A stretch of DNA of 64,000 nt from NCBI GenBank assembly GCA_046290225.1, contig JBKAGE010000077.1:64001-128000 (forward strand). Reading direction: 5' to 3'. The translations under genes and the position numbers were made by a program. Position 1 is the stretch's first letter, and each line of letters begins with the position of its first letter. The notes under the pieces are model-generated. The model was not told the DNA's origin, ran no database searches, and saw nothing but the letters and a program-made list of their open reading frames with translations. Positions 20,673 through 34,341 of the stretch are shown here, in pieces. The DNA is from Bradymonadia bacterium (GTDB lineage: Bacteria; Myxococcota_A; Bradymonadia; UBA7976; UBA1532).

Positions 20673-22016
20673 ATGCTCAAGCACGCCAGCGCCGTCGCCA
20701 TGGGCCTTACCCTTGCCCTGAGCACACTGGCCCATGGCCAGTTTGTAGGTGGTCAGGGGGCTCAAATCGCTGACGGACTTTATGATCCGATCAGCGTCAG
20801 CCATCCATCATGTGCACCGCTGGCGCCGCCAGCAGGGCCGACGATTCAGATCGGTCCGGCGAATGCGGACACGCTGCCCTCGACGATCCTCAACGCTGCG
20901 TCGGGCACGGTGATCGTTCTCGAAGATGGGGTCTACACGTTCAGCTTCCAGGACGAGGCCTCGCGCCGTCTGCGGTTCGAGACACCCAACGTCACCCTCA
21001 CCTCGTTGTCGCAAGATGCCACTCGGGTGATCATTGATGGTGAGTATCTCACCAACGAGATGGCGTACATCACCGCCTCGAACATCACGATCTCCCACAT
21101 CACCTTCACCCGGGCGGTGGATCACCTGATCCACCTCACGCCGACTACAGGGGTGAACTCGACGAACGTGAAGCTCTATGGGCTGCGCCTCATCGATTCG
21201 GGTGAGCAGTTCATCAAGGGCAACCCCAACCCCGGTCGTACAGCCTGGCCCGACGACACCGAGGTGGCCTGCTCGGTCTTCATGCTCACCGATGACGGTC
21301 GCCCCAACGTGTCGACAGCAGTGAACGGCTGCTACACCGGCGGCATCGATGTGCACGGCGGCCGTGACTGGCACGTCCACCACAACTACTTCGGTGGCAT
21401 CTACTGCAAGAACGGCTCACTGGCTGAGCACGCGGTGCACTTCTGGCGTGGGGCCCGCGACACCCTCGTGGAGCAGAACATCATCGTCAACGGCGCGCGA
21501 GGCATCGGCTTTGGTCTGGCGAGCACCGGTGAGACCCGGCCTTACAACGACAACCCCTGCCCGGGTGCCAACGGCGGCTACGTGGGCCACCACGGAGGCA
21601 TCATCCGCGGCAACATCATCTACGCCGAGCATGCGTACTACGACGCAGGCATCAGCCTCGAGCAGGCCTGCGGCGTCGAGGTGCTTCACAACACGGTCTT
21701 CGAGACGAGCGACGCCTCCAACGGCTTCTCGTCAATCGAGTACCGCTATGACAACACCGACGCGTTGATCCAGAACAACATCACCCGCTTGATTCGCCAG
21801 CGGAACAACGGCTCGGCGACGACGCTCAACAACATCCAAGACGCCAAGAGCAGCCTCTTCGTGCGCCCCGACGCACGGAAGCTCGGCTTCCAGCTGCGCG
21901 CCTCGGCCACCTCCGCGGTGAACCAGGGCGCAGCCACGGCCAACGCAGGTGTCGATCTCGAGGGCAACGCCCGCAACAACGGCAACCCCGACATCGGCGC
22001 CCTCGAGCGGCAGTGA
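20673..22016 (+). CDS. Secreted right-handed parallel beta-helix (pectin-lyase-like) protein
   Basis: Signal peptide; [11 protein letters not shown], Asn-ladder strands (VHHNYF, VEQNII, IRGNII, VLHNTV), C-terminal DLEGNAR...PDIGALE. Confidence 0.75.
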
Positions 22017-22027
22017 GGAGGCTGATC

Positions 22028-25000
22028 ATGAACCGCACATACATCTCTCGTAAGCGTTTGCTTCAAGCCCTCGCCGGCGCCTCGGTCATGGTGGCCACCT
22101 CGACAGCCTGGGCCACGATGGACCGCCACCACAGCTGTGTGGTGTCGACGACGGGTGCACTCTACTGCTGGGGCGCCAACGCCTCGGGCCAGCTCGGCCA
22201 GGGCGACGCCAACCTACGTGGTAACGATGCCAACGAGATGGGGGCCAACCTCTCCGCGGTGAGCCTGGGCACGGGCCGCACAGCCACCCGGGTGGCCATC
22301 GGCGACGATCACACCTGCGCGTTGCTCGACGACGCCTCGGTGAAATGCTGGGGTGACAACGCCTCGGGCCAGCTCGGACAGGGCAGCACCTCGACGCTGG
22401 GCGACGGCGCCAACGAGATGGGGGACAACCTCACCGCCGTCGATCTCGGCACTGGCCTCGCGGCGATGGCCGTGGCAGCCGGTAACACCCACTCCTGTGC
22501 GCTGATCACTGATGGCCGCGTGAAGTGCTGGGGGGCCAACGATTTTGGCCAGCTCGGCCTCGGTGACACCACCGTACGCGGCGACGACGCCAACGAGATG
22601 GGCGACAACCTGCCCTTCGTCGACCTCGGCACCGGCCGCACGGCGACGGCGCTGAGCGCTGGCGCCCATCACACCTGCGCGTTGCTCGACGACGCCTCGG
22701 TGAAGTGCTGGGGCGCCAATGATTTCGGCCAGCTCGGCCAGGGCAACACCGCGATCCGCGGTGATGACATCAACGACATGGGCGATCTGCTGCCCGCGGT
22801 GGCTCTCGGTACGGGCCGCACAGCCCTCGATCTCACCACGGGTGCAGATCACAGCTGCGCGCTGCTCGACAACGGCCGCCTCAAGTGCTGGGGCTACAAC
22901 GGCTCCGGGCAGCTCGGTCAGGGCGACACGGCCCACCGCGGTGACGGCGCCAACGAGATGGGCGACAACCTCGCAGTCATCGATCTCGGCGGCGCGGTGG
23001 GGGCAGGCCTCACGGTGCTGGCGGTGGCCGCCGGCGACGATCACACCTGCGCCCTGCGGGACGACAACACGGTGAAGTGCTGGGGTGCCAACATCTCGGG
23101 CCAGCTCGGCCTGGAGAGCACCGATACACTTGGTGACGCAGCCAACGAGATGGGCAACGCCCTCGCCACGGTCGACCTGGGTACGGGCCGTACTGCTGGT
23201 GCGCTCGGCGCCGGCTCGGATCACACCTGCGCGGTGCTCGACAACAACACACTGGTCTGCTGGGGCCTCAACCAGCACGGTCAGCTCGGTCAGGGCGTGA
23301 CCACCTGGTGGGGCGACGGGGCCGACGAGATGGGTGACGATCTCGTGGCGGTCTCCCTGAGCGGCACGCCCGAGCTGCCGATGAACTTCGGCGGCCTGAG
23401 CCGCTGCCCGGATCAAGATCTCGACGGGGTCTGTGACGCCGACGACAACTGTGTGGCCAACGCCAACCTGAACCAGGCCGATGCTGACGCTGACGGCCAG
23501 GGCGATGTCTGTGACGTCTGCCCCAACGACGCCAACGACGACGCTGACGGCGACGGTCTCTGCGCCGACGTGGACAACTGCCCTGGCGCAGCAAACGCCG
23601 CCCAGACCGACACCGACGCCGACAGTCTTGGTGATGCCTGCGATGTCTGCCCCAACGACGCCACGAACGATGCTGACGGTGATGGGGTCTGCCAAGATGT
23701 AGACAACTGCCCCGGCGTGGCGAACCCCAACCAGGAAGACAACAACGGCGACGGCTACGGCGATGCCTGTGTGAGCCTCGGGGCGAACATCCATCCCACG
23801 GCCACCCTGGGCAGCGCCGTCGTCGTGGGCAATGGGGTCACCCTCGGTCCCTACGCCGACGTTGGCGACGGTGCCACGGTTCTCGGTGACGTGGGCGACA
23901 ACAGCAGCATCGGTGCGGGCTCGGTGGTCGGCGCAGGCTGTGTGGTGGGCAACGCCGTCGTCCTCGGCGCCAACGTCTCCCTCGGCGCCAACTGTGTGGT
24001 CGACACCCTCGCCGAGATCGGCGCGGGCAGCAGCGTCGGCGTCGCCGGCAGCGTGGGCACGCAGAGCACTCTGGGCGCCAACGTCACTTTGGGTGACGGG
24101 GTCTCTGTCGGCGCCATCTCCCAGGTGGGCGACAATGGCAACTTCGCCGCCGGCTCATCTGTATCGCCAAACACCATCGTGGGCGCCAACGCTCAGGTGG
24201 GCACCAACAGCGCCATCAGTGGCAACGCCCGAGTGGGTGACGATCTCGTCCTCGGCGCCGATGCGGTCATCGGGCCCAACAGCATCATTGGCGATCGCGC
24301 CGCCTTCGGTGACAACACGTCCACTGAGGCCTACGCGGTCATCGGCAATGACTTCTCCATTGGCGCTGGCTCCGAGATGGCCTCGGGCGCCACAGCCGGT
24401 AACGATGTCAACATCGGCGCCGGCGTCGAGGTCCGTGGTGCCCTGGGCAACCGCGTGATTCTCGAAGACAACGTCTTTGTGGGCAACCAGAGCAACGTGA
24501 GCGACGACTGCCACCTGCAGACCAACGCGAGCCTGGGCATCTTCGTCGATCTCGGCACCAACTGCGCCATCAGCCCCGACGTGGCGATCTTCGATGGTGC
24601 AAGCCTCGGCGTCGACGCGGTCATCGGCGCTCGGACGACAATTTTGTTCCGCAGCACCCTCGGGGATCGTGCCGATGTGTCCACCGACACGATCATCGAC
24701 GAGCAGGTCACCATCGGCGATGACTTCACCCTCGGCGCAAACAGCCGCCTCTGGCCCCGAAGCACGTACGGCAACGACGTCACCATCGGCGCCAACACCC
24801 TCATTCGCGACACGGCGACTGTGGGCGATGGGGTCATCGTGGAGGACAACGTTCTCATCTACCCCGAGGTCAACATCGGGGATGAGACGATCATCCGCGC
24901 GAGCGTGGAGATTGGCGTGGAGACCTGTGCCACCCGCGTGTGTGGTCAGGTGGACATCGGCGGCTGCCTCGACGTGAACGCTGATCAGGCACCGGGCACG

Positions 25001-25678
25001 ACCCTCGCTGGCCAGTGCGAGGCGACGATCGTGGTGAACGGCGCGAGCCGCAACTGGTCCGATGGCACCTACGCCACGGCCTGTCACGACTACCGCTACC
25101 CCGACGGGGTGGACTACGTGTACGGCGGCGCCACTGGTGATGGCCGCTACACCATCGACACCGACGGCAGCGGCGGCGACGCGCCCTTCGATGTGTACTG
25201 CGACATGACGACTGATGGTGGTGGTTGGACTCTGGTGGACAACGACGCCACCAACGCTGGCACCTTCGGCTCACGTACTCTGGGTGCCAACACCGACATC
25301 AACACCACCCGCGGCGCGGTGCTGCCGTCCTACGACTGGTCGGCCAGCCCCCAGCTGCTCTGCAAGTCGAGCCGCTTCACGGGCACGCTGCCCTGGCTCA
25401 CCTTCAACGTCGTCTCTGCATCAGGCCGCAACTACCCCACGACGACGACGATTGCTGCAGCTGGCTCCGGCGGTCACTTCTCCTACGCCAACCTCAACGG
25501 AAACACCGCTCGAGGCACGGCGGCCTGGATCTACGTGGGCAATGGCCGCTTCGGTTCGGTCTGGATCGGCGCCGGCAGCAACAGCACCTGCTCGTGCAAC
25601 TACGGCAGCGGTCGCCACACCGGCCTGGGCACCTACGGCCCGGGTACCTCTGCAACCTGTAGCACCTGGGTTCGCTAG
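22028..25678 (+). CDS. Secreted RCC1-repeat + TSP3 + left-handed beta-helix + fibrinogen-related C-terminal domain protein
   Basis: GAGGAGG SD before ATG 22028 (alternative GTG 22013). RCC1 repeats, DxDxDGxGDxCD repeats, hexapeptide repeats, and [15 protein letters not shown] (fibrinogen-like). Confidence 0.9.
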
Positions 25679-25765: not shown

Positions 25766-26062
25766 AGAGAGTTTTTCGGGCACGGGCACGGGCACGGGCA
25801 CGGGCACGAGTTGATACATACTCTGACCCGTGGCCTTGCCTGAGTTCAGGGCGAAGATTGTCATTACAACTGAGATGGTGAGCTTCAGCACAGCCTGAGA
25901 ATTCAGGTCTTGGGGGGTATGGAGGAGGTCAGAACCTCCACTGAGAAAAGCGTGGGGCTGAGTAGAGCCTCCACCACCATAAACCTACGAGCGGAGCCAT
26001 GCTGGGCTACGGGTCAGAGTATGTATCAACTCGTGCCCGTGCCCGTGCCCGAAAAACTCTCT
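25766..26062. repeat. Inverted-repeat element with (GGGCAC)n arms around a structured ~170-nt spacer
   Basis: 25766-25835 and 26005-26062 are reverse complements, apart from 5 vs 3 GGGCAC copies and one wobble. Lies between convergent genes. Confidence 0.85.
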
Positions 26063-26663
26063 ACCGCTGGTTATCAGCAGACACCCCAAAGAGCCAAGCG
26101 ATGTTCGCTCGGGGCTGATGACAGTTGATGCAGAAGTCGACCTGGCCAGTGAACGACGCAGTCCCATCATTCTCGATGCGGGCCCACCACCAGTCCTCAG
26201 CACCGTTGTCGAAGCCCTCGCCCACCTTGGCCATCACCGTCAGAGCGGTGGGATCACCGTCAGCGTTGAACTGAGGTTTGACGAGCATTGCCCCAGCGGG
26301 GATGTCGAAGTCGCCCTCGGTAGCCTCCGGATCGATGCCGCGGTAGACATCGACGATGTCGTTGCTCACCCAGTAGTCCACCATATCGCCACCATGCTGC
26401 GACATGCGGCGCTCGCTGTTGATCTGGGTGAAGCCCTCGTCCTGGTAGGCCACAGCCCGGGCCACGAAGGCAGCCTCGTCGAGGCCACCGCCAGCACCGC
26501 CCTCAGGGGTGCCGCCCATGGCCTCGCCGCCGGCGCCGCCCATGGCTTCTCCGCCCGAGCCGGCCTCTCCACCACCATCATCGTCGTCGCCACCACAGGC
26601 GAAGAGGGTCAGGCTCAGCGAGGCGATCAACAGTCGATTCCAGCGGCGTTCAACGATGCGCAT
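26061..26663 (-). CDS. Cytochrome P460/c'-beta-like lipoprotein (200 aa)
   Basis: AAGGAG SD; lipobox LFAC; P460-type pattern PAGAMLVK...LTVMAK...DWWWA...FCINCH with a C-terminal CxxCH. Confidence 0.75.
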   Translation of the reverse strand: MRIVERRWNRLLIASLSLTLFACGGDDDDGGGEAGSGGEAMGGAGGEAMGGTPEGGAGGGLDEAAFVARAVAYQDEGFTQINSERRMSQHGGDMVDYWVSNDIVDVYRGIDPEATEGDFDIPAGAMLVKPQFNADGDPTALTVMAKVGEGFDNGAEDWWWARIENDGTASFTGQVDFCINCHQPRANIAWLFGVSADNQR

Positions 26664-27795
26664 GATGGCTCCTTTTATCGGGTATGCCACAGGCAGTGAA
26701 GGCCTTGGCAAAGGCCTGCCTGCCTCGGGCGTCGAGATGGTTGTAGAGGAAAGCCCGGCCGTCGCACATCGCGTCGGCGTGTTGCCTCACCCCCTTGTCG
26801 TCAGAGGTGAGGGCACACTGGAGGTCAAAGCGCCCCAAGGGCACCTCTCGCTCAGGGCATTGGAACTTCGTGCCTTTGTCGGTGGTGATGCGCTGCACCT
26901 CGGCGCCGCTCGGACACGTCACCGAAACACACGGATCAGCAGCGTTGGGATCGTCGGGCCGATAGCCCTCCAACGGCGCGTGATCCACCAACAAGGTCTT
27001 GGGCGTGAAGAAGCCCACGGCGTCGGTGCCGCGGTTCACATTGATGGGCGATGGCCCCGTGGTGATCTCAGGGCGATGGCTGGTGTGACAGCCAGCACAA
27101 TCCGAGCGGGCGCGGTACACCTTGATGGCCTTCTTCCGCCGCTTGGGACGGGTCTTCCATGGGAAGCCGACGCCCTGGCGCATCGCACCGTAGATCGCCT
27201 CGTGCACCTGCCCTTTGACCGCCTGATCGCCTCGAAGCCAGGTGTAGCCGAACAGATCCGCCTCTGCTCCAGGGCCCACAGGCCGGAACACGCGGAAAGT
27301 CTGAGCCCCGTCAGCACCGATCTCGGTGCCGCGTACATCGGCCACCCGGTAGGGCGCCTGCGCCTTGGGTCGCCAGTACTCCACCCGATCGGAGATTGTG
27401 CCCTTCGGGTAGTCGAGGGTCAGCTGACCATGAGGACCTTCCACTGTCTTGATCACACCATCCTTGGGGATCTTCAGCCAGATACGGGTGGTGGAGCGGC
27501 CCCCGGTTCCGCCGGGCAAGTGCACTGGCGGTGTCAGAGAGACGAACCCCTGATCAGCCCACCATGTCTGCTGGCCAGAGATGATCGTCGCCCCTTCTGG
27601 AGGCGCGGGCGACCCGTGGTCATGACTGTGATCGCCATGATCATGACTGTGATCTCCATGGTCATGCCCATGACCATCGTGCTCGTGGCTTCCACCGGCG
27701 CTGATGAAGTACGCGCCGACGAATGCGCCGATACACACCGCGGCGACACCGAGCATCTTCGCCAGGGTGGCAGCATCTCGGCCCGGACCGCTCAC
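26650..27795 (-). CDS. Membrane-anchored protein with a His-rich tract and one CxxCH (putative c-type cytochrome)
   Basis: N-terminal TM helix, HEHDGHGHDHGDHSHDHGDHSHDH (11 His), CAGCH, further Cys near the C-terminus. Overlaps the downstream gene by 14 nt. Confidence 0.6.
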   Translation of the reverse strand: MSGPGRDAATLAKMLGVAAVCIGAFVGAYFISAGGSHEHDGHGHDHGDHSHDHGDHSHDHGSPAPPEGATIISGQQTWWADQGFVSLTPPVHLPGGTGGRSTTRIWLKIPKDGVIKTVEGPHGQLTLDYPKGTISDRVEYWRPKAQAPYRVADVRGTEIGADGAQTFRVFRPVGPGAEADLFGYTWLRGDQAVKGQVHEAIYGAMRQGVGFPWKTRPKRRKKAIKVYRARSDCAGCHTSHRPEITTGPSPINVNRGTDAVGFFTPKTLLVDHAPLEGYRPDDPNAADPCVSVTCPSGAEVQRITTDKGTKFQCPEREVPLGRFDLQCALTSDDKGVRQHADAMCDGRAFLYNHLDARGRQAFAKAFTACGIPDKRSHHAHR

Positions 27796-27796
27796 C

Positions 27797-28546
27797 TCAA
27801 CGCTCCGGAGCAGGCCAGCGGGCCTCGATGTCGGCGATGACCGGAGATCCGAGGATGCCCGCGCGCTTCAGCTCGAGGGCCGCCTCGACGAGGGCCTTCC
27901 GAGATACACCCGCCTGAGCACAGACCTCGGCGTTGGCCTCTTCGTTCGCCCAGGCGAACGCCACCAGCATGGGCAGGGTGGGCTGGATGAACCGCACCAT
28001 GCGATCGCTGGGGCGCCGGTAGAACAAGATGGTCACCGGCGTCGGCTTCAGCGGGATATCACGGCCACTCTTGATGCCTCGGATATAGCCCGGCACCGTA
28101 TGGGTGTAGGCTCGGATGCTCGCCGTGGGGTTCACGACGTCGGCTTCTACGTCGAAGGGTCGCGTGTCACGGGTGGTCGTGTAGTAGAGATACTCGTAGT
28201 CGGCGATTTGAGCCCACAGCTCACGGGCTTCGAGATCAGTCTGCTCGATGAGCCAACCGGCAAAGCCTTCACCGAAGACGTTGAGATCCCAGTGGCTGCT
28301 GGGTCGCCCGAGGGCATAGGTGTCCACGAGAGCCCGCCAGGCCTTTCGCTCACCCACAGCCTGCTCTACGCCGGGATACAGGTAGCCCATGATCCGCCGA
28401 TGGTTGGCGCGGATCAGCTGCGCATAAAAGGCGATGTGATCATCACGAGAGGGCGAGTCGCCGAGGCGTTGCTGCAGCTCGGCAGGATCAATCTCTCCGC
28501 GCAGGAACGGCACCATGGCGTCGAAGAACTGCTGCAGGTTGCTCAC
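27797..28546 (-). CDS. MNIO partner protein (DUF2063 / HvfC-BufC-like)
   Basis: Coupled to the DUF692 gene by a GTGA overlap. N-terminal LQQFF...Y...YPGV...W..LV..Y....PS...DLN.FG..F pattern. Confidence 0.75.
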   Translation of the reverse strand: MSNLQQFFDAMVPFLRGEIDPAELQQRLGDSPSRDDHIAFYAQLIRANHRRIMGYLYPGVEQAVGERKAWRALVDTYALGRPSSHWDLNVFGEGFAGWLIEQTDLEARELWAQIADYEYLYYTTTRDTRPFDVEADVVNPTASIRAYTHTVPGYIRGIKSGRDIPLKPTPVTILFYRRPSDRMVRFIQPTLPMLVAFAWANEEANAEVCAQAGVSRKALVEAALELKRAGILGSPVIADIEARWPAPER

Positions 28547-29379
28547 GCCTCACCCCCAACGGCCTCGGGCGTGGCGAACTTTTGCCAGATGGCCCGGGCC
28601 TTGTCGGCCTCGTCGATCACGCGATCGAGGGGCGGGATCTCCATGTCCCACTCGATGAGGGTGGGGGCTGGCCCCGTGCGGTGCAACGCCTCGCTGTACA
28701 TCTGCCACACCGGATCGATCACCGGGCTGCCGTGGTTGTCCACGGCGAGATCTCCGACATACTTGTGGCCGGCGAGGTGAATACGCCCGGTCTTCTCCAA
28801 GGGCAGAGCCTGTAGATCAGCATGGGCGTCGGTGCCGTGGTTGTGGGCGTTCACGTACACATTGTTCACGTCGAGCATCAGGCCGCAGCCGGCCTCTTCG
28901 ATGACCGTGGTGACGAACTCACCTTCAGTCATCTCGGCGCCGGGCATGATGGCGTAGGTGCTCACGTTCTCGAGCAGGATCGGGCGCTCGAGCATCTCCT
29001 GCACCTGCTTGACCCGTCGGGCGATGTGCAACGCCGCTTCGTGGGTAAATGGCAGGGGCAGGAGGTCATAGAAATTTTGACCGTGGGCCGTGGCGAAGCA
29101 CAGATGCTCGGTGAACACCGGCACGCCGAGCCGATCGAGCAGGGCTTTCACCAGCTCGATGTGACCCCGGTCAATCGGATCAGGCCCACCGAGGGACATG
29201 GACACGCCGTGCACCCCAATGGGCCAGCGCTCGGCGCAGGCGTCGAGGGTCTTGCCCCCGACGCCGCCGTTGGCGATGAAGTTCTCGGGAATGATCTCCA
29301 ACCAGTCGATCTGTCGATCAGTCTTCTGGATGCTGGAGAAATGCTCCCGCCTCAGGCCAATGCCCACTCCCTCTTCCAT
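28543..29379 (-). CDS. Multinuclear non-heme iron-dependent oxidative enzyme (MNIO, DUF692/UPF0276)
   Basis: GIGLRREH, WLEIIPENF, HGVSMSLGG, TEHL, DLLPLP, LLENVS, LDVNNVYVN, IHLAGH, DNHG, LIEWD: the expected iron-ligand motifs appear intact. Confidence 0.95.
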   Translation of the reverse strand: MEEGVGIGLRREHFSSIQKTDRQIDWLEIIPENFIANGGVGGKTLDACAERWPIGVHGVSMSLGGPDPIDRGHIELVKALLDRLGVPVFTEHLCFATAHGQNFYDLLPLPFTHEAALHIARRVKQVQEMLERPILLENVSTYAIMPGAEMTEGEFVTTVIEEAGCGLMLDVNNVYVNAHNHGTDAHADLQALPLEKTGRIHLAGHKYVGDLAVDNHGSPVIDPVWQMYSEALHRTGPAPTLIEWDMEIPPLDRVIDEADKARAIWQKFATPEAVGGEA

Positions 29380-29385
29380 GGACGC

Positions 29386-29850
29386 TTACTCCTCGCCCTC
29401 GTCACCGGGGCAGCCCGAGGGACAGCCGGCCTCGCCACCCTCGCCATCGTCGGGGCAACCAGCGGGGCAACCCGCCTCGCCGCCCTCACCGTCACCGGGG
29501 CAACCACCGGGGCAGCCGGCCTCACCACCGGCGGGGCAACCTGCAGGACAGCCTGCATCACCACCGGCTGCGGGGCAACCAGCGGGGCAACCGGCAGGGC
29601 AGCCCGCAGGGCAGCCTGCGTCACCACCAGCTGCGGGGCAACCGCCGGGGCAGCCAGCCTCACCACCGGCGGGGCAGCCTGCGGGGCACCCGGCCTCACC
29701 GCCCATGGCCTCACCGCCGCTGCCGGCTGCGGCCTCACCACCGCTGCCGCCGCTGCCGCCATCATCATCATCGTCACAGCCACCAGCGGCGAGGCCGATG
29801 CCGCCAGAAAGCAGAGCCATAGCCAGGATCTTGGAGGTCGACTTGAACAT
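29386..29850 (-). CDS. Cys/Gly/Pro-repeat lipoprotein (154 aa); putative RiPP precursor/substrate of the MNIO
   Basis: Signal peptide ending LAAGG|C, acidic tether, then 16 GCP motifs in (E/D)AGCP(A/G/S)GCP units. Ends 6 nt upstream of the MNIO ATG. Confidence 0.85.
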   Translation of the reverse strand: MFKSTSKILAMALLSGGIGLAAGGCDDDDDGGSGGSGGEAAAGSGGEAMGGEAGCPAGCPAGGEAGCPGGCPAAGGDAGCPAGCPAGCPAGCPAAGGDAGCPAGCPAGGEAGCPGGCPGDGEGGEAGCPAGCPDDGEGGEAGCPSGCPGDEGEE

Positions 29851-29952
29851 ATTTACTTCCCCATATGGTCGTTATTGCACTGCGCTCGGGACGTCAGGCC
29901 CCTGGCGATGTGTACATGACATCGGGCTTCACAGCACAGTGCTAGGGAAAGA

Positions 29953-29979
29953 TACGTGGGGTGGAAAAAAGGTGTTACA
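29953..29979 (-). promoter_or_regulatory. ECF sigma-type promoter upstream of the MNIO operon
   Basis: Minus strand TGTAACA-N16-CGTA, about 100 nt before the precursor ATG. Close to the GTAACC-N16-CGAA SigF/ECF16-type consensus as recalled. Confidence 0.55.
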
Positions 29980-30191
29980 ACTGTTTTGTTTTTTTGCTGA
30001 AACAGCACAAAAAACGAGTTGAACCTGTATCAAAGGCGCAAATTTAGCGGGTACGAATATGTTGGCAAATCACTCAACGTGAAGTCCATTTCAATTATTC
30101 GGACTCGTCATTGCGTTTACCTTGATGATTGAGCACACACCAAAGTGCAGCTGTGTGGCAGGCAGGTTGCACCGATCATCGGAGCGCGTGC

Positions 30192-31088
30192 TCAGGCTGC
30201 GTGGGCGTTCATGCGGGCGGGGCTGCCCGAGAGCGTACGCTCGAAGAACGCGTCCATGACTGCCCAGAGCCCCTGACCAGCGCCGCGACGAAAGCCGCGA
30301 AAATGCCCAATTGCTGAAGCGCCCAAATCCTCGGGTCGATACACCGAGTGCTCGGTGGGGGCACGGGGCAGCAAATGTACGAAGTCTGCAGTGGCCTCCG
30401 GCGTGATGTACGTATCATCCGTCACCGAGAGGTGCAGGTTCGGCACCTCGAGGGGTGCCATGATCGAGCGGATCAGCTCGCGCTCTTCTCGCGTGAAGTA
30501 ACCAGGGGTGCTGCAACGCCGCGCCCACTCTCGAGCCACCCCACCAGGCAAATCTTCAGAGGTGCCCATCCAACCGGGCAAATAACCGATGAGCCGCGCC
30601 GTCGTGGGCATGAGCATCTTCAATTGCCACATGCGCCGCCGGCGGAGATGGGCCGGTGCGAGGCCATAGTACCCGCTCCCCGAAGCCACAGTGATCGAGC
30701 CTGTGGGCTCGTGCAAGGCACCGGTCCTCAACATGGCGTGACCGCCGAAGCTGTGACCCACATAGAACAATGGTCGACCCGCAGCGCGCCCTCGGCCCTG
30801 GTCGCATGCCGCCCGGAAGTCCTTGAACATCCAGTCGCTCATGCTGATAGCGTCACCCTTGATCGAACCCCGGCGAGATCCGCCGATGCCCCGATAATCA
30901 TAGGTAAAGACTGTGTGTCCCTGCCCCACGAGGTGCTCGGCATATTGATCGTAATACCCCTGAGGCACCGCTGTGGCGGGATGCATGACCGTCACAGGTC
31001 CGTCATCTGCCGTGTGCTCTGCAGTGAACCAGCGCCCCGCGAGCAGGTGGCCGTCGGTGGACTCGAATTCGATGGGGGTGATCTGCAT
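30192..31088 (-). CDS. Alpha/beta hydrolase (COG4757-like)
   Basis: PATAVPQGYY, YDYRGIG, nucleophile elbow GHSFGG, C-terminal IGHF. Confidence 0.88.
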   Translation of the reverse strand: MQITPIEFESTDGHLLAGRWFTAEHTADDGPVTVMHPATAVPQGYYDQYAEHLVGQGHTVFTYDYRGIGGSRRGSIKGDAISMSDWMFKDFRAACDQGRGRAAGRPLFYVGHSFGGHAMLRTGALHEPTGSITVASGSGYYGLAPAHLRRRRMWQLKMLMPTTARLIGYLPGWMGTSEDLPGGVAREWARRCSTPGYFTREERELIRSIMAPLEVPNLHLSVTDDTYITPEATADFVHLLPRAPTEHSVYRPEDLGASAIGHFRGFRRGAGQGLWAVMDAFFERTLSGSPARMNAHAA

Positions 31089-31203
31089 GGCGACCTCCGA
31101 GAGGATACGTGAGATTGCACAGATGAAACGTGCTCAACTGTTGTAAACAAGATGATGAGCCGATACCCCAGAAGACAAACGAAAGTAGACTTGCAAAAAC
31201 GCA

Positions 31204-32079
31204 ATGCCAGATAACGTACCCGGTCTGAAGTGGGATGACGTGCCCTATGTACTCGCCGCGGTTCGCCTCGGCTCGTGCGCCGCTGCGGCCCGCACCCTCG
31301 GCGTGGCGGTGACCACGGTGACACGCCGTATCGCGGCCTTCGAAGCCGCCATCGGGCGCCCGGTGGTCCGCCTCACCCGAGATGGTGTCAGCCTCACTGA
31401 GGCAGGTGCCGGCCTCATGGATCATATGGTGCGTATCGAAGAGGCCATGGTGGGGCTCTCACGACAGCTGAAGAGCGGTGATCACCCCTCGGGACCTGTG
31501 CGCGTCACCACCCTGGAGACTGTGGCTACGGCGTTCCTGGCACCCAACGTCGGGGCCTTCGTCGAACAGCACCCGGACATCGAGCTCACTTTGAAGGGTG
31601 AAAACCGCTCCGCCGACCTTCTGCGGGGTGAGGCCGACATCTCCGTGCGTCTAGGACGCCCTCGACAGAAAGATCTCGTGGTACGCCGGCTGGGCCTGGT
31701 GCACTTCGATCTCTTCGCCTCCGCGGGCTACATCGAGCGCTGGGGCCGCCCTGATCCGGAGCACCTCGACGGGCACCGCCTGGTGACATTCACCCGGGAC
31801 TTCAACCACATCTTCATCGTGCAGTGGCTCTCGGAGCGCTCCCAAGGGGCCCAGGTGGTGTGCCGGTCGGTCCACACCACCACACTCCTCGAGATGATCC
31901 GAAGCGGCGCCGGGATCGGGCTGCTGCCCACGCGTATGGGCGAGGGGCTGGTGCCTCTGAACGCCCAGAATCTGCCTGGCGCTCCGCTGTGGCTGGCGTT
32001 TCATCAAGATGATCGCAACCGGCCGGCGATCAGGGCTGTAGCCAACTGGATCATCGACACGCTCACCGAGGTGGGCTGA
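31204..32079 (+). CDS. LysR-family transcriptional regulator, divergent from the hydrolase
   Basis: HTH GSCAAAARTLGVAVTTVTRRI, LTEAG, effector domain EADISVR, GAGIGLLP. Confidence 0.92.
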   Translation: MPDNVPGLKWDDVPYVLAAVRLGSCAAAARTLGVAVTTVTRRIAAFEAAIGRPVVRLTRDGVSLTEAGAGLMDHMVRIEEAMVGLSRQLKSGDHPSGPVRVTTLETVATAFLAPNVGAFVEQHPDIELTLKGENRSADLLRGEADISVRLGRPRQKDLVVRRLGLVHFDLFASAGYIERWGRPDPEHLDGHRLVTFTRDFNHIFIVQWLSERSQGAQVVCRSVHTTTLLEMIRSGAGIGLLPTRMGEGLVPLNAQNLPGAPLWLAFHQDDRNRPAIRAVANWIIDTLTEVG

Positions 32080-32212: not shown

Positions 32213-32731
32213 TCAGCCTGGTGATTTGATCACATACCCGGGATGCATCCGCCCCGTAGGGGGATAGAGCGCATGCTCGGTGTATCGAAAGCCCAGACCG
32301 ACGAGCATCTTCTTCGAGCTCTGATTGTCTGGGTGATGCCCGGCGAACACCGCTGAGGCACCATAGACCTCGAAGGCATGTTCGAGCACGCTCTGCGCAG
32401 CCTCTCGTGCAAAGCCGAGGCCCCAGTGTGCTGGCCTCAAGTGCACCCCGAACTCCACCACGTTCTTCTCAAGATCATGAGGCCGCAGCCCGGCACAGCC
32501 GACGTGTGCCCCACTCTCCCGATGAAACATCGGCCAATACTGGATCCCGTGCTCGACCTGGCTCTCGATGTGCCCTTGAAGCATGGCGCTCACCTCGCCC
32601 ACATCGAAGTGCCCTCGAGCGCTGATGAGCGCGGCCACACGCGGATCACCCCACAGCCCCTGGGCAAGGTCCAGATCATCTACACGCCAGAGCCGAAAGG
32701 CCAGTCGAGGGGTCGGTGATGGATGCTTCAC
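32213..32731 (-). CDS. GNAT acetyltransferase, RimJ/RimL-like
   Basis: TPRL, EFGVHL...WGLGFAREAA, N..S..ML..LGF. GTG start overlaps the HTTM gene stop. Confidence 0.85.
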   Translation of the reverse strand: MKHPSPTPRLAFRLWRVDDLDLAQGLWGDPRVAALISARGHFDVGEVSAMLQGHIESQVEHGIQYWPMFHRESGAHVGCAGLRPHDLEKNVVEFGVHLRPAHWGLGFAREAAQSVLEHAFEVYGASAVFAGHHPDNQSSKKMLVGLGFRYTEHALYPPTGRMHPGYVIKSPG

Positions 32732-34341
32732 TTGCTCCGCAACGGGCCGGCCTTTGCCTTCCAGCTGTAGATCTTTCGTTTGCGCTCGAAGATCGGCGCG
32801 TCGCCTGTGCCCGGAGCCGGGCTGACGTCCGAGATCCACCAGGCGGTGAAGGCCACCACGTCTTTACCGGGCGGGATCAAACCACGCTGATGCTCGCCGT
32901 TGGCGAACCACACAGCCCACTTGGCGAACAAGTGCTTCTGGAACTGCAGGCGGAACATCAGGTTCTCTTCGTAATGGGTCCAGTGCCGGAGCCGGGCATC
33001 GGCCATCTGGTCGAGGTTGGGCACCTCACCTGTTCGGGGGTCGATGTGGGTGCCGTCGTCGAGCTCGGCGTCGACGATCATCCACCCATCTTTCACCGGC
33101 GCGTCAGGGGCGAAGAGCTGCCAGCCCTGCTGGAAGTCACCGTAGTGAGAGAAGGTGTTCGCCCACGTGGGCATCTTGTGATCGGGGAACGTCTTCCTCA
33201 GCGCCCGGTTTTGGTCCATGGCCCGATGGAAGCACGACAAGAAGGCCACGACCACGAAGACCTGGGCCGCCCAGAACCGCACCGGATGGTGCTTGGGGCT
33301 GTCGGGTACCTCAATGTCGCGTACATGGGTGTGGGCCTCGAGCCAGAGCCCTACGGATCGCATGGCCCCTTCAATGGCCAGCCAGGCACCCCCGAGCTTG
33401 CCGGCGAGCCAGCGGCCGAAACGGCCGAGCAGATCGCAGTCCTGCGAGGTGAGCAGCAACATGTACGACACCGACATCATGTACGAGAACAGGCTCAGAT
33501 CGGTCACCGCGGCGATGCTCAGGTGCAGCCCGATGAGGCTCACCACAAGCACTCGACGACACCAGACCACGGCGAAGGGGGACCAGATCAGAATCGGCGC
33601 CAGGCCCTCGACGATGAGCGTGCCCCAGCTCATGGCCCACAGCACGCTCATGGGGGCCCAGCCCCGGAACCAGAAGCCGAAGTCGGTGAGGATTCGATCC
33701 TGGTGCAGCAGCCAGTAGACCGCTTCGCCCTTCATCCAGGTGTCGCCGGTCTTGTGGATGGTGTTGAAGAAGTAGATGACCGCCAACTGCATCATGAAGC
33801 CGGTGATGGCGAGGCTGCGGATGGGGGCCCGCAGCGTCTCAAGGGGCACGCCCTTTCGGGCAGCGAGCCACGCATCGACTGACCAGCTGCGCCCCAGGGG
33901 CAGGGCGATCGTCCACAGCCACCAGAGGTTGTGCACGATGTCGGCGCCGATGTGCACCACCCAGTTCCGGTTGTGGATGCTGATCATGCAGATCATGCCC
34001 AGCACCTGAAACAGGCGGGTGCGCCAGCCGGCGACAAAGGCCATCAAGATGCCCGCGGTGGCGAGGAAGAAGACCTTCACCTCCCAGACCTCGTCGAGCA
34101 TGTAGAGCAGGCTCAGGCGCTGGGGGCCCTCCCCGGTCATGTAGAGGGCGTAGTGGTTCGGCAGCACACCTTCGTTGGTGTAGAGCATGGCGATATGGGG
34201 CCATCGCTGCCAGAGGTCGATGAGACACAGCAGCCCGAAGGCCACCCGGAACACCGCCAGAGATCGCGGATCCACCGTGATCCAGGCCCGCCAGTTGAAG
34301 ATGCTCTTCTTCACCACCCCGTTCTCCACGCTCGCGTTCAT
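32728..34341 (-). CDS. HTTM-domain membrane protein (vitamin K-dependent carboxylase-like family)
   Basis: DPRSLAVFRVAFG, LYTNEGVLP, HNRN, WSVD, YFFNTIHK...W..G, QGWQLFAP; multiple TM helices. Confidence 0.85.
   Translation of the reverse strand: MNASVENGVVKKSIFNWRAWITVDPRSLAVFRVAFGLLCLIDLWQRWPHIAMLYTNEGVLPNHYALYMTGEGPQRLSLLYMLDEVWEVKVFFLATAGILMAFVAGWRTRLFQVLGMICMISIHNRNWVVHIGADIVHNLWWLWTIALPLGRSWSVDAWLAARKGVPLETLRAPIRSLAITGFMMQLAVIYFFNTIHKTGDTWMKGEAVYWLLHQDRILTDFGFWFRGWAPMSVLWAMSWGTLIVEGLAPILIWSPFAVVWCRRVLVVSLIGLHLSIAAVTDLSLFSYMMSVSYMLLLTSQDCDLLGRFGRWLAGKLGGAWLAIEGAMRSVGLWLEAHTHVRDIEVPDSPKHHPVRFWAAQVFVVVAFLSCFHRAMDQNRALRKTFPDHKMPTWANTFSHYGDFQQGWQLFAPDAPVKDGWMIVDAELDDGTHIDPRTGEVPNLDQMADARLRHWTHYEENLMFRLQFQKHLFAKWAVWFANGEHQRGLIPPGKDVVAFTAWWISDVSPAPGTGDAPIFERKRKIYSWKAKAGPLRSK

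What the first reader, a model, noticed from the sequence alone, without database searches (positions are those of the whole stretch)
26061..29979. Candidate new MNIO (DUF692) RiPP-like system: lipidated GCP-repeat precursor plus two c-type cytochromes
Seen: five tightly coupled genes (gaps or overlaps of 14 nt or less), in the order Cys-repeat lipoprotein, DUF692 enzyme, DUF2063-like partner, His-rich CxxCH protein, P460-like lipoprotein. Established: DUF692 enzymes (MbnB, ChrH, TglH, BufB, HvfB) with a partner oxidatively modify Cys in a neighbouring peptide, and the bufferin and oxazolin products bind copper. Inference: this cluster makes a membrane-tethered, multiply Cys-modified metal-binding protein, possibly coupled to periplasmic electron transfer. 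I do not recognise this precursor type or the cytochrome pairing from described clusters.
Basis: partly seen in the sequence, partly recalled or inferred. Interest (0 to 1): 0.92.

Follow-up and report, generated by a model that had tools for sequence, protein, structure and literature searches.

The report
Thiooxazole-type lipoprotein operon with P460 haem partners
A five-gene operon pairs a peptide-modifying iron enzyme and its helper with a membrane-anchored protein made of Gly-Cys-Pro repeats and two haem proteins of the cytochrome P460 type, a combination that recurs in related bacteria and has not been described, although the enzyme class itself is known.

Summary
Five co-directional genes sit on the minus strand (26061-29850):
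- a lipoprotein with 16 Gly-Cys-Pro motifs
- a BufB/HvfB-type MNIO
- a DUF2063 partner
- a membrane-anchored protein with an invariant CxxCH
- a P460-fold lipoprotein that keeps the P460 cross-link lysine position

The same five components occur in all 14 loci I examined. One locus is cut by a contig end. Gene order differs between loci. In one genome the GCP repeats are fused to the P460 domain in a single lipoprotein.

All 13 GCP-linked MNIOs fall in one clade, next to Myxococcota enzymes that have KCG-type (oxazolin-like) precursors. The GCP precursors match no HvfA or BufA model. The CxxCH protein has no Pfam family, yet it has 374 representative relatives.

Best reading: this is a new variant of the captophorin (bufferin/oxazolin) class. 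MNIO and partner convert the repeat cysteines to 5-thiooxazoles in the cytoplasm. The product is exported, lipidated, and works at the membrane together with two haem proteins that take the place of the usual DoxX.

The chemistry, metal specificity, haem loading and the role of the haem pair are all inferred. No expression data were found.

The parts
30041..30068 (-). Promoter-like site in the 341-bp AT-richer spacer upstream of g1
   Evidence: Consensus scan, 9 of 12 matches. It was the only site found, and shuffles give 0.9 on average, so it is weak. The spacer sequence was read.
29386..29850 (-). g1: lipoprotein precursor, 154 aa. Signal peptide with lipobox AGG|C, then an acidic Gly-rich linker, then 16 Gly-Cys-Pro motifs mostly arranged as GCPxGCP pairs.
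   Evidence: ORF. A GGGGAAG Shine-Dalgarno-like motif lies before the ATG. Cys context counted. No Pfam or NCBIfam hit. Equivalent precursors occur in 13 other loci.
28543..29379 (-). g2: MNIO (DUF692) enzyme of the BufB/HvfB type, 278 aa, with no signal peptide
   Evidence: PF05114, E 2.8e-102. NCBIfam BufB 319.7 against cut-off 310; HvfB 298 against cut-off 360. Closest solved chain is 3bww, E 6.1e-57. Falls in the GCP clade of the tree.
27797..28546 (-). g3: DUF2063 partner protein (PME1 type), 249 aa, with a 4-nt ATGA overlap onto g2
   Evidence: PF09836, 39.1 bits against cut-off 27.2. Weak hit to the HvfC model, 26.1 against cut-off 142. Found next to the MNIO in 13 of 13 complete GCP loci.
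26650..27795 (-). g4: membrane-anchored extracytoplasmic protein, 381 aa. It has an invariant CxxCH (C233, C236, H237), four further conserved Cys, and a His/Asp-rich insert (about residues 38-63) found only in this copy. An alternative ATG start lies at 27756.
   Evidence: No Pfam family. Alignment of 15 sequences. AF2 model with pLDDT 84.1. VIA-align top five matches are all P460/c'-beta chains, Z 4.9-5.4. 374 representative relatives. Present in 14 of 14 GCP loci.
26061..26663 (-). g5: lipoprotein (LFA|C) with an acidic Gly-rich tether and a C-terminal cytochrome P460-fold domain. Invariant residues are H90, K129, M144 and C178-x-x-C181-H182.
   Evidence: PF16694, 25.7 bits against cut-off 27. 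The collection's precomputed Pfam label is PF16694. Foldseek top 10 of 10 are P460/c'-beta chains, best E 9.9e-4. K129 aligns with Lys78 of M. capsulatus P460. Alignment.
26060..26081 (-). Terminator-like hairpin with a T-run overlapping the g5 stop codon
   Evidence: Consensus scan. Two sites were found against 1.7 expected, so it is weak on its own.
31204..32079 (+). LysR-family regulator, divergent from the operon and separated from it by one hydrolase gene. A possible regulator only.
   Evidence: PF00126 and PF03466. LysR-like genes also lie within a few kb in L004, L005, L045 and L046. Identity is only 25-27%, so this may be generic family similarity.

Best explanation
This is a captophorin-type (bufferin/oxazolin-class) RiPP-like operon with a new substrate type and new accessory proteins.

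Proposed mechanism:
1. In the cytoplasm, the MNIO g2 and its DUF2063 partner g3 oxidise the 16 cysteines of the Gly-Cys-Pro repeats of g1. The most likely product is 5-thiooxazole.
2. The modified protein is exported through Sec.
3. It is acylated at its lipobox cysteine and stays tethered to a membrane as an acidic, multi-site binder of a thiophilic metal, most likely copper.
4. Two extracytoplasmic CxxCH proteins work with it. One is membrane-anchored (g4). The other is a P460-fold lipoprotein that keeps the cross-link lysine position (g5).
5. The two haem proteins occupy the operon position that DoxX usually holds. They probably carry out redox chemistry on the bound metal, on the thiooxazole thiolates, or on a small N-oxide ligand.

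What is shown: gene identities, operon structure, strict co-occurrence across genomes, the natural fusion, and clade structure.

What is inferred: the chemical modification, lipidation, the metal, haem loading, and what the haem proteins do.
For: Enzyme and partner:
- g2 is a full-length MNIO that reaches the BufB equivalog cut-off. It scores far below the ChrH, MbnB and ApyH cut-offs.
- g3 is DUF2063 and is translationally coupled to g2.
- g1 sits 6 nt upstream of the MNIO, the position of precursors in described MNIO-PME1 clusters (PMC13097082 section 7; PMC12452194 section 15).

Co-occurrence:
- Of the 21 loci returned, 6 carry a lipobox ORF with GCP repeats directly upstream of the MNIO. 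Those same 6, and none of the other 15, carry a g4 homologue.
- The g4 profile found matches in 11 of 401 genomes of the phylum, including the window's own.
- Of the 10 other genomes, 7 have MNIO, DUF2063 and a GCP precursor adjacent. In 1 the contig ends inside a GCP precursor. In 2 g4 stands alone.
- Across the 14 distinct GCP loci, g4 is present in 14 of 14 and a g5-like gene in 14 of 14. MNIO and DUF2063 are present in the 13 loci not cut by a contig end.
- Gene order differs between loci: g4-precursor-MNIO-DUF2063-g5 in some, precursor-MNIO-DUF2063-g4-g5 in others. The linkage is therefore kept through rearrangement.

Fusion:
- In L047, a single lipoprotein gene (10440-11036) carries seven GCPTG repeats followed by a P460-like domain. 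That domain is homologous to the window's g5 (E 1e-10).

Phylogeny:
- All 13 GCP-linked MNIOs lie in one clade (support 94/85, inner node 97/95). Their sisters are Myxococcota enzymes with KCG-type precursors.

Haem proteins:
- The g5 model matches P460/c'-beta structures in the top 10 of 10 Foldseek rows.
- g5's invariant K129 and CxxCH align with Lys78, Cys140, Cys143 and His144 of M. capsulatus P460.
- The CxxCH of g4 is invariant in 15 of 15 aligned sequences. The five best structural matches of the g4 model are all P460/c'-beta chains.

Chemistry:
- 5-thiooxazole keeps the Cys carbonyl bonded to the next residue, so a following proline is compatible with it. This rests on my own knowledge of the product structure, not on a call.
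Against: - No copper, DoxX or other metal-homeostasis gene was found among the 10 flanking ORFs scanned.
- The only metal hint in the operon is the His/Asp-rich insert of g4, which 14 of 15 aligned homologues lack.
- Cys-Pro is not a documented substrate context. [quoted passage not shown]
- The GCP-clade enzymes lack the Phe found after the catalytic Asp in the gammaproteobacterial EGKCG enzymes. They have T, N, L or M there, so their active-site details differ.
- The characterised activity of P460 is hydroxylamine oxidation (PMC12352625, abstract), not anything related to copper.
- g5 scores just under the Pfam gathering threshold.
- g4's fold match is weak (Z about 5, below the tool's stated caution level of 8). 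Foldseek found nothing for it.
- Profile-profile comparison of g4 with g5 gave a probability of 2%.
- One non-GCP enzyme (L014, on a long branch) falls inside the GCP clade.
- Two g4 homologues occur without any MNIO nearby.
Confidence: 0.6

Rival explanations
1. The operon is mainly a periplasmic N-oxide module for handling hydroxylamine or nitric oxide, built around P460-type haem proteins. The MNIO-modified GCP lipoprotein serves as an attached redox or metal cofactor arm, or as an electron relay, rather than as a copper buffer.
For: - g5 keeps the lysine that forms the defining haem cross-link of P460 enzymes. The c'-beta protein of Thermus has Phe at that column.
- In L047 the GCP repeats form the tether of the P460 domain itself.
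- No copper genes lie nearby.
- A g4-family domain is fused to a di-haem peroxidase-type region in a 1544-aa relative, P0108.
Against: - No nitrogen-cycle gene was seen among the flanking ORFs scanned.
- The enzyme clade derives from copper-associated captophorin enzymes (PMC13097082).
- P460 catalytic residues other than the Lys were not examined.
- The host phylum is not known to me as nitrifying (recalled).
Confidence: 0.15
2. The MNIO performs a different reaction on the Cys-Pro repeats, for example a ChrH-like macrocyclisation or heterocyclisation across CPxGC pairs, or carbon excision. The product would then not be a thiooxazole metallophore.
For: - The Cys-Pro context and CPxGC spacing are absent from the described thiooxazole substrates (PMC13097082 section 13).
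- ChrH-type substrates have a CPxCGxG motif in which Cys is also followed by Pro (PMC13056109, passages).
- The residue after the catalytic Asp differs from that of the EGKCG enzymes.
Against: - g2 scores 52.3 against a ChrH cut-off of 600, yet reaches the BufB cut-off.
- Its partner is DUF2063, the PME1 type tied to thiooxazole formation (PMC13097082, abstract and section 7).
- Many orthologous precursors have single GCP motifs spaced 7 residues apart, not CPxGC pairs.
Confidence: 0.15
3. g1 is an unmodified Cys-rich lipoprotein, either a metallothionein-like protein or a disulfide-rich linker. The MNIO acts on another substrate, or on none.
For: - No experiment links g2 to g1.
- g1 matches no precursor model.
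- The homologue search with g1 returned nothing because of its low complexity.
Against: - g1-type ORFs lie directly upstream of the MNIO in 12 of the 13 complete loci. In the 13th (L047) the repeats are fused to g5 within the same operon.
- The MNIO clade tracks the precursor type.
- DUF2063 partners are almost always dedicated to MNIO-precursor systems (PMC13097082 section 7).
Confidence: 0.05

Closest known systems
Captophorins of the Lys-Cys group: oxazolin (HvfABC) and fontiphorin (FonABC)
   Same: - MNIO plus DUF2063/PME1 partner.
- A repeat-type Cys-rich precursor with an export signal directly upstream.
- g2 scores 298 bits on the HvfB model, and its nearest solved relative is 3bww.
- The sister enzymes in the tree have KCG-type precursors.
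   Different: - The repeat is G-C-P in an acidic, lysine-free context, not EGKCG.
- The HvfA repeat model (NF050137) hits a control EGKCG precursor but none of the 4 GCP precursors tested.
- HvfB and HvfC cut-offs are not reached.
- There is no DoxX. Two CxxCH proteins sit in its place.
- The residue after the catalytic Asp is T, N, L or M instead of Phe.
Bufferins (BufABCD; DUF2282 and Buf_6/12Cys precursors)
   Same: - g2 reaches the NCBIfam BufB equivalog cut-off.
- Same logic of cytoplasmic modification followed by Sec export.
- About 16% of Buf2 bufferins are predicted to be lipoproteins (PMC12452194 section 14).
   Different: - The precursor has no DUF2282 or BufA2 match.
- It is a tandem-repeat protein rather than a folded 4- or 6-Cys domain.
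- It has haem accessory proteins instead of DoxX.
Lipidated MNIO products (lipo-DybA, ChrH subfamily)
   Same: An MNIO-modified precursor with a lipobox that is routed through the lipoprotein pathway (PMC13056109, passages).
   Different: - A different MNIO subfamily: ChrH model 52.3 bits against a cut-off of 600.
- A different partner type and a different chemistry.
- That paper's main text contains no occurrence of the word cytochrome.
Cytochrome P460 / cytochrome c'-beta superfamily
   Same: - g5 has the fold and the C-terminal CxxCH.
- g5 has a Lys at the cross-link column.
- The five best structural matches of g4 are all in this family.
   Different: - g5 is a lipoprotein with a long acidic tether, and it scores 25.7 against the Pfam cut-off of 27.
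- g4 is roughly twice the size, has an extra Cys-rich C-terminal part, and shows no detectable sequence similarity.
- The review I searched contains no passage with the words copper or lipoprotein (PMC11928373, term search).
Methanobactin operons with MbnH/MbnP
   Same: An MNIO-made copper-binding peptide system that also encodes a periplasmic haem protein pair. This description is recalled. I saw only a search listing of PMC13729199 and PMC11951088.
   Different: - MbnH is of the di-haem peroxidase (MauG-like) type, not P460-fold (recalled).
- The MbnB model scores 45.4 against a cut-off of 325 on g2.
- The product there is a secreted small peptide, not a tethered repeat protein.

Membership tests
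Captophorin-type MNIO-PME1 cluster (bufferin/oxazolin class) | MNIO (PF05114) enzyme of the BufB/HvfB group | tested here: met
   PF05114, 341.9 bits, covering profile positions 1-262 of 263. NCBIfam BufB 319.7 against a cut-off of 310.
Captophorin-type MNIO-PME1 cluster (bufferin/oxazolin class) | Adjacent DUF2063 (PME1) partner | tested here: met
   PF09836, 39.1 bits against a cut-off of 27.2, with a 4-nt overlap onto the MNIO gene. The HvfC equivalog model is not reached: 26.1 against 142.
Captophorin-type MNIO-PME1 cluster (bufferin/oxazolin class) | Cys-rich precursor with an export signal next to the MNIO | tested here: met
   g1 lies 6 nt upstream and has a signal peptide, a lipobox and 16 GCP motifs. 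The signal peptide was read by eye; no predictor was run.
Captophorin-type MNIO-PME1 cluster (bufferin/oxazolin class) | Precursor belongs to one of the three described groups (DUF2282, Lys-Cys repeat, Cys-Lys) | tested here: not met
   g1 has no Pfam or NCBIfam hit at E <= 0.1. Its core has no Lys. Of the 7 precursors scanned as a check, the HvfA repeat model hit the EGKCG control and the BufA2 model gave a sub-threshold hit on the L014 control. The 3 other GCP precursors gave no hit to either model.
Captophorin-type MNIO-PME1 cluster (bufferin/oxazolin class) | Cys converted to 5-thiooxazole; product binds copper | not testable with these tools
   Needs co-expression, MS, UV and NMR, and metal titration.
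Cytochrome P460 (PF16694), for g5 | Pfam model reached | tested here: inconclusive
   25.7 bits against a gathering score of 27. The collection's precomputed label for the same protein is PF16694.
Cytochrome P460 (PF16694), for g5 | P460/c'-beta fold with a C-terminal CxxCH | tested here: met
   Foldseek top 10 of 10 rows are P460/c'-beta chains; best is 7s5o_A, E 9.9e-4, probability 1.00. C178, C181 and H182 are invariant in 9 of 9 sequences.
Cytochrome P460 (PF16694), for g5 | Lysine at the haem cross-link position (separates P460 from c'-beta) | tested here: met
   Invariant K129 aligns with K78 of 6hiu. The Thermus c'-beta protein has Phe at that column. Lys78 is the cross-linking residue according to PMC12352625 (passages). 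Whether a cross-link actually forms cannot be tested here.
Cytochrome P460 / c'-beta fold, for g4 | Shared fold | tested here: inconclusive
   VIA-align ranks 1-5 are 7s5o, 8brk, 6hiu, 2je3 and 6amg, but at Z of only 4.9-5.4. Foldseek gave nothing at E <= 0.001. hhalign against the g5 family gave 2%.
ChrH-type MNIO systems | ChrH equivalog model | tested here: not met
   52.3 bits against a cut-off of 600.
Methanobactin (MbnB) | MbnB equivalog model | tested here: not met
   45.4 bits against a cut-off of 325.

The most novel reading that the evidence does not exclude
MNIO-installed thiooxazoles are used here as a built-in cofactor arm of an extracytoplasmic haem machine, not as a free metal buffer. 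In this reading, a lipid-tethered array of thiooxazole (metal) sites is physically coupled to two P460-fold haem proteins, and in one lineage is fused to one of them. Together they form a new kind of periplasmic redox module, in which RiPP chemistry decorates a protein partner of haem enzymes.
Probability: 0.2. Interest if true: 0.85.

Novelty: new variant of a known kind. Interest (0 to 1): 0.62.

Why it matters
MNIO-PME1 clusters are among the most common peptide-modifying systems in bacteria. So far they are tied to three precursor types and to copper buffering.

This finding adds three things:
- A fourth, chemically distinct substrate context: Gly-Cys-Pro, acidic and lipidated.
- A strictly linked pair of haem proteins, one from a family with no Pfam model.
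- A natural fusion of RiPP-type repeats to a P460 domain.

The system offers a direct way to ask several questions. Can thiooxazole-forming enzymes accept Cys-Pro? Can they modify a 16-site protein? What do P460-fold proteins do in bacteria that do not nitrify? Do thiooxazole-metal sites talk to haem?

The whole system is only five genes, which makes it a practical target for co-expression.

Tried and rejected
- **Homologue search with the g1 precursor:** none of the 8000 scored candidates reached E <= 0.001, presumably because of low complexity. No count of GCP precursors in the large collection was obtained.
- **Word-based search with g5:** only 3 proteins found. I took further homologues from the loci instead.
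- **Foldseek on the g4 model against PDB:** no match at E <= 0.001; the top rows were unrelated rotavirus VP8* chains.
- **hhalign of the g4 family against the g5 family:** probability 2%. No support for sequence-level homology.
- **BLASTP of g1 against g5:** run to test whether g1 derives from the g5 tether. Nothing significant, E 0.32.
- **Profile of the g4 family against PDB sequences:** only a weak match of the helix-CxxCH stretch to a cytochrome c555 construct, 6.9 bits per repeat.
- **Protein Atlas on g4:** structural neighbours at TM 0.39-0.45. Some of those clusters contain cytochrome c families in a minority of members. These are leads only.
- **Complex prediction for g4 (62-381) with g5 (58-200):** no verdict, score 0.02.
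- **Sequencing runs:** no RNA holder listed. Only two partial DNA holders were returned, with word shares of 0.22 and 0.09, and I did not lay reads on them.
- **Rfam scan of 25900-31300:** no match at E <= 0.1.
- **Inverted repeats:** none found in the two upstream spacers.
- **My first GC3-based gene picker:** it failed on these high-GC loci by picking antisense frames. I replaced it with tblastn.
- **Supplement look-up for PMC13056109:** I cannot say whether GCP precursors appear there.
- **Supplements of PMC12452194 that were held:** no occurrences of Enhygromyxa, Nannocyst, GCPG or P460. One file was cut when stored, and the PDF with Table S2 could not be read.
- **Literature searches that returned 0 papers:** DUF692 with P460; thiooxazole with c-type cytochrome; MNIO with Gly-Cys-Pro.
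- **Earlier findings of this scan:** nothing by place, by words or by sequence.
- **'Spurious low-complexity ORF' for g1:** considered and rejected, because of the conserved lipobox, position and motif across 14 loci.

Full report
**What is in the window**

The minus strand between 26061 and 29850 carries five co-directional ORFs:
- g1: 29386-29850, 154 aa
- g2: 28543-29379, 278 aa
- g3: 27797-28546, 249 aa
- g4: 26650-27795, 381 aa from a GTG. An ATG 13 codons further in gives the 368-aa form held in the protein collection.
- g5: 26061-26663, 200 aa from the ATG, or 216 aa from a TTG at 26711

The junctions follow from these coordinates:
- g1-g2: 6-nt gap
- g2-g3: 4-nt overlap
- g3-g4: 1-nt gap
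- g4-g5: 14-nt overlap

A 341-bp spacer precedes g1. It contains one promoter-like site, and a GGGGAAG motif lies before the g1 ATG. A hairpin with a T-run overlaps the g5 stop codon. Both consensus sites are no more frequent than in shuffled sequence, so they only mark plausible operon limits. GC content is 0.63-0.66 across the operon and 0.58-0.68 in the flanks examined, with no compositional break.

**Identities of the five proteins**

- g2 is a full-length MNIO: PF05114, E 2.8e-102.
  - It scores 319.7 bits on the NCBIfam BufB equivalog (cut-off 310) and 298 on HvfB (cut-off 360).
  - It scores far below cut-off on ApyH, ChrH and MbnB.
  - Its nearest solved relative by sequence is 3bww, E 6.1e-57.
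- g3 carries DUF2063 (39.1 bits, cut-off 27.2). It hits the HvfC model only weakly (26.1 against 142).
- g1 and g4 hit no Pfam family at E <= 0.1. g1 hits no NCBIfam model either.
- g1, read directly, has a signal peptide ending in AGG|C, then an acidic Gly-rich linker, then 16 Cys.
  - Every one of these 16 is preceded by Gly and followed by Pro.
  - Most are arranged as GCPxGCP pairs separated by Gly/Asp/Glu stretches. The core has no basic residue.
- g4 has an N-terminal helix (residues 8-33 in the model), a His/Asp-rich stretch, and a single CAGCH.
- g5 has an LFA|C lipobox, an acidic Gly-rich tether and a C-terminal CINCH. It scores 25.7 bits on PF16694, Cytochrome_P460 (cut-off 27). The collection's precomputed label for it is PF16694.

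**Conservation elsewhere**

A scan of species-representative genomes with g2 returned 21 loci.

Six of the 21 loci carry a lipobox ORF with GCP repeats directly upstream of the MNIO:
- These are L001-L005 and L009, from Nannocystaceae, two Enhygromyxa salina strains and unclassified Myxococcota-like MAGs.
- The repeat units include TTAGCPG, TEAGCPG, GGEAGCPGA and GCPSGCPT.

The other 15 loci look different:
- 10 have signal-peptide ORFs with K/S-C-G type repeats, which are oxazolin-like.
- 1 has bufferin-like 4-Cys peptides.
- 2 have a membrane protein with a Cys/Gly tail.
- In 2 I saw no candidate precursor.

tblastn with the window's proteins found g4 in exactly the 6 GCP loci and in none of the other 15. 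It found g5 in five of the six.

Next I built a profile from 15 g4 homologues and searched 401 genomes of the phylum. It matched 11 of 401, including the window's own, and 0 of 17 other genomes of the window's own family.

I fetched up to 17 kb around each of the 10 other hits:
- 7 have MNIO, DUF2063 and a GCP-type precursor adjacent. One of these is the same place as L009.
- 1 (L042) has a g5-like gene, then g4, then the start of a GCP precursor, at which point the contig ends.
- 2 (L040, L048) have g4 with no MNIO in the stretch.

A search with the g5 profile then showed diverged P460-like lipoprotein genes directly beside g4 in the two loci where tblastn had missed them, L002 and L046.

The tally over 14 distinct GCP loci, counting the window:
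- g4: 14 of 14
- g5-like: 14 of 14
- MNIO and DUF2063: 13 of 13 where the contig allows

Gene order differs between loci. L001-L005, L043 and L044 have g4-precursor-MNIO-DUF2063-g5. The window, L009, L041 and L045 have precursor-MNIO-DUF2063-g4-g5. In L002 and L042 g5 is divergent from g4. The association is therefore maintained through rearrangement.

**A natural fusion**

L047 has no separate precursor between g4 and the MNIO. Instead, the gene after DUF2063 (L047:10440-11036, 198 aa) encodes one protein with three parts:
- a lipobox signal
- seven GCPTG repeats
- a P460-like domain with the conserved His, Lys and CIQCH

That domain aligns with the window's g5 at E 1e-10. This is the strongest single argument that the repeat protein and the P460-fold protein act together in space.

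**Enzyme phylogeny**

I built a maximum-likelihood tree of 33 MNIO segments: all 21 loci, the six paralogues of the window's genome, and six further GCP loci.
- All 13 GCP-linked enzymes fall in one clade of 14 rows (support 94/85, inner node 97/95).
- The sisters of that clade are two Myxococcota enzymes with KCG-type precursors.
- The 14th row is L014 (Chromobacterium), which has bufferin-like precursors. It sits on a long branch (1.39) at an unsupported fork. I read it as misplaced but cannot exclude otherwise.

Gammaproteobacterial EGKCG enzymes have Phe after the catalytic Asp (ERDF). This matches the FonB-Phe250 position described in PMC13097082 section 14. The GCP clade has T, N, L or M at that position.

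The window's genome has five further MNIO matches. One of them (L023) sits next to a different lipoprotein precursor with EKGCSG-type repeats. The GCP system is therefore an additional system in this genome, not the only one.

**The two CxxCH proteins: g5**

- The AF2 model has a confident domain, with pLDDT blocks of 82-95 for residues 61-170, and a disordered tether.
- Its Foldseek top 10 of 10 rows are cytochrome P460 or c'-beta chains. The best is 7s5o_A at E 9.9e-4, probability 1.00.
- A profile of nine g5-type sequences matches M. capsulatus P460 at E 0.0034-0.0039.
- In the printed alignment, the invariant K129 of g5 falls on residue 78 of 6hiu, and the CxxCH falls on residues 140, 143 and 144.
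- PMC12352625 (passages) names Lys78 as the haem cross-linking lysine and Cys140, Cys143 and His144 as the haem attachment residues.
- The Thermus c'-beta protein has Phe at the Lys column.

By this criterion g5 is P460-like rather than c'-beta-like. Whether a cross-link actually forms is unknown.

**The two CxxCH proteins: g4**

- The AF2 model is good: mean pLDDT 84.1, pTM 0.78.
- Foldseek finds nothing for it.
- An exhaustive VIA-align run ranks five P460/c'-beta chains first: 7s5o, 8brk, 6hiu, 2je3 and 6amg, at Z 4.9-5.4 with 109-129 residues aligned.
- The tool's own note says Z under 8 may reflect only a common arrangement, so I treat this as a lead.
- Profile-profile comparison with g5 gives 2%.
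- In the 15-sequence alignment C233, C236 and H237 are invariant, as are C294, C313 and C344. C369 is nearly so. No second invariant His or Met is present.
- The His/Asp-rich stretch occurs only in the window's copy.
- The family has no Pfam model but is not tiny. A profile search of 1.84 billion representatives gave 374 proteins at E <= 0.001 and 266 at E <= 1e-30.
- I scanned six of the longer members of this family.
  - One (P0108, 1544 aa) joins the g4 domain to Ig-like domains and a di-haem peroxidase-type region.
  - One (P0042) spans DUF2063 plus g4. This matches the stop-free frame I saw in L009, and may be a gene-call artefact because g4 there has its own lipoprotein signal.

**Comparison with what is in print**

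PMC13097082 (abstract and sections 7, 13, 14 read):
- It defines MNIO-PME1 clusters with Cys-rich precursors as captophorins.
- It assigns 5-thiooxazole to fontiphorin, oxazolin and a Neisseria product.
- It lists three precursor groups: DUF2282, Lys-Cys repeats and Cys-Lys.
- It reports that FonBC prefers a small residue after Cys and rejects charged ones.

PMC12452194 (abstract, sections 15 and 17, and term searches):
- It describes the same landscape.
- It notes hundreds of unclassified signal-peptide ORFs with 1-18 Cys.
- Its main text contains none of the words Myxococc, P460 or GCP.

PMC13056109 (passages only):
- It shows that MNIO products can be lipidated through the lipoprotein pathway.
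- It surveys MNIO-linked lipoproteins. Its main text has no occurrence of cytochrome.

Limits of the literature check:
- Its supplementary list could not be opened, and part of the supplements of PMC12452194 could not be read. I cannot exclude that individual GCP precursors are listed there without comment.
- Three full-text searches each returned 0 papers: DUF692 with P460, thiooxazole with c-type cytochrome, and MNIO with Gly-Cys-Pro.
- NCBIfam's HvfA repeat model recognises a control EGKCG precursor, and the BufA2 model weakly recognises a control bufferin-like peptide. None of the four GCP precursors tested matches either model.

**Mechanism proposed**

Shown: an MNIO of the thiooxazole-forming group and its partner are encoded with, and co-evolve with, an exported lipobox protein whose only recurring feature is Gly-Cys-Pro. 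Two extracytoplasmic CxxCH proteins are always present alongside them.

Inferred sequence of events:
1. g2 and g3 convert the repeat cysteines to 5-thiooxazoles in the cytoplasm. This heterocycle uses the preceding carbonyl and the Cys N, C-alpha, C-beta and S, and leaves the Cys carbonyl bonded to the next residue, so a proline there is tolerable. An oxazolone-thioamide would need the next amide nitrogen. That point is my own chemical reasoning, not a tool result.
2. The product is exported and triacylated.
3. It presents up to 16 soft-ligand sites close to the membrane.
4. g4 and g5 bind haem c and act on the metal, on the thiolates or on a small ligand.

No copper-related gene, and no DoxX, was found among the 10 flanking ORFs I scanned. 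These were a GST, two unknowns, a giant RCC1/hexapeptide protein, a hydrolase, a LysR regulator, a GNAT, an HTTM protein, a GGDEF-EAL protein and an acyltransferase. A LysR gene lies near the operon here and in four other loci, but at generic similarity.

**Verdict**

It is not a new kind of system, because the enzyme, the partner and the export logic are those of captophorins. It is a distinct, conserved variant in three respects: the substrate motif, the obligatory P460-fold pair, and the precursor-P460 fusion.

I rate it a new variant of a known kind, with interest 0.62.

All functional statements beyond gene identity and linkage are untested. No expression evidence was available.

Noticed in passing
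window 22013-25678 (+): A 1221-aa secreted protein that combines RCC1 repeats, thrombospondin type 3 repeats, a long hexapeptide/left-handed beta-helix region and a fibrinogen-C-like end. It ends 383 nt before the stop codon of g5, on the opposite strand.
   Followed up: partly
L023 (G000:C40:22390-26220), ORF 2380-2937 (-): The same genome holds a second MNIO locus. Its upstream lipoprotein precursor has EKGCSG/EKSCSG repeats, which are oxazolin-like but use Ser in place of Lys-adjacent Gly. It matched no HvfA model in NCBIfam.
   Followed up: partly
G000:C1:157211-158281 (+); also L017:373-1434: A lipoprotein with two tandem P460-like domains occurs elsewhere in the window's genome. A similar one lies about 4 kb upstream of a KCG-type MNIO locus in L017.
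   Followed up: no
L040 8038-9057 (+): A g4-family lipoprotein that stands without any MNIO. It lies between an ArsA-like ATPase ORF and an MBL-fold/rhodanese ORF followed by two YeeE/YedE-like membrane ORFs. These neighbours were named by eye from motifs, not scanned.
   Followed up: no
P0108 (1544 aa): A g4-family domain at the C-terminus of a large protein that also has Big_5, PKD, CCP_MauG and RoxA-like cytochrome c regions.
   Followed up: no
L009 4604-7579 (+); P0042: DUF2063 and g4 lie in one frame with no stop codon between them, although g4 has its own lipoprotein signal there. A 578-aa database protein has the same layout. This is either an apparent fusion or a gene-call artefact.
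   Followed up: no
L016 4012-4968 and L018 1575-2540: Two Planctomycetota MNIO loci are preceded by a ~320-aa multi-pass membrane protein that ends in a Cys/Gly-only tail. It resembles the TIGR04222-type proteins discussed in PMC12452194; I did not scan it.
   Followed up: no
window 26650-27795 (-), residues about 38-63 of g4: A His/Asp-rich insert (HEHDGHGHDHGDHSHDHGDHSHDHG). The other 14 aligned homologues lack it.
   Followed up: partly
window 32728-34341 (-) and 34338-37001 (-): An HTTM-domain membrane protein is followed by a GAF-PAS-GGDEF-EAL protein, with overlapping stop and start codons.
   Followed up: no
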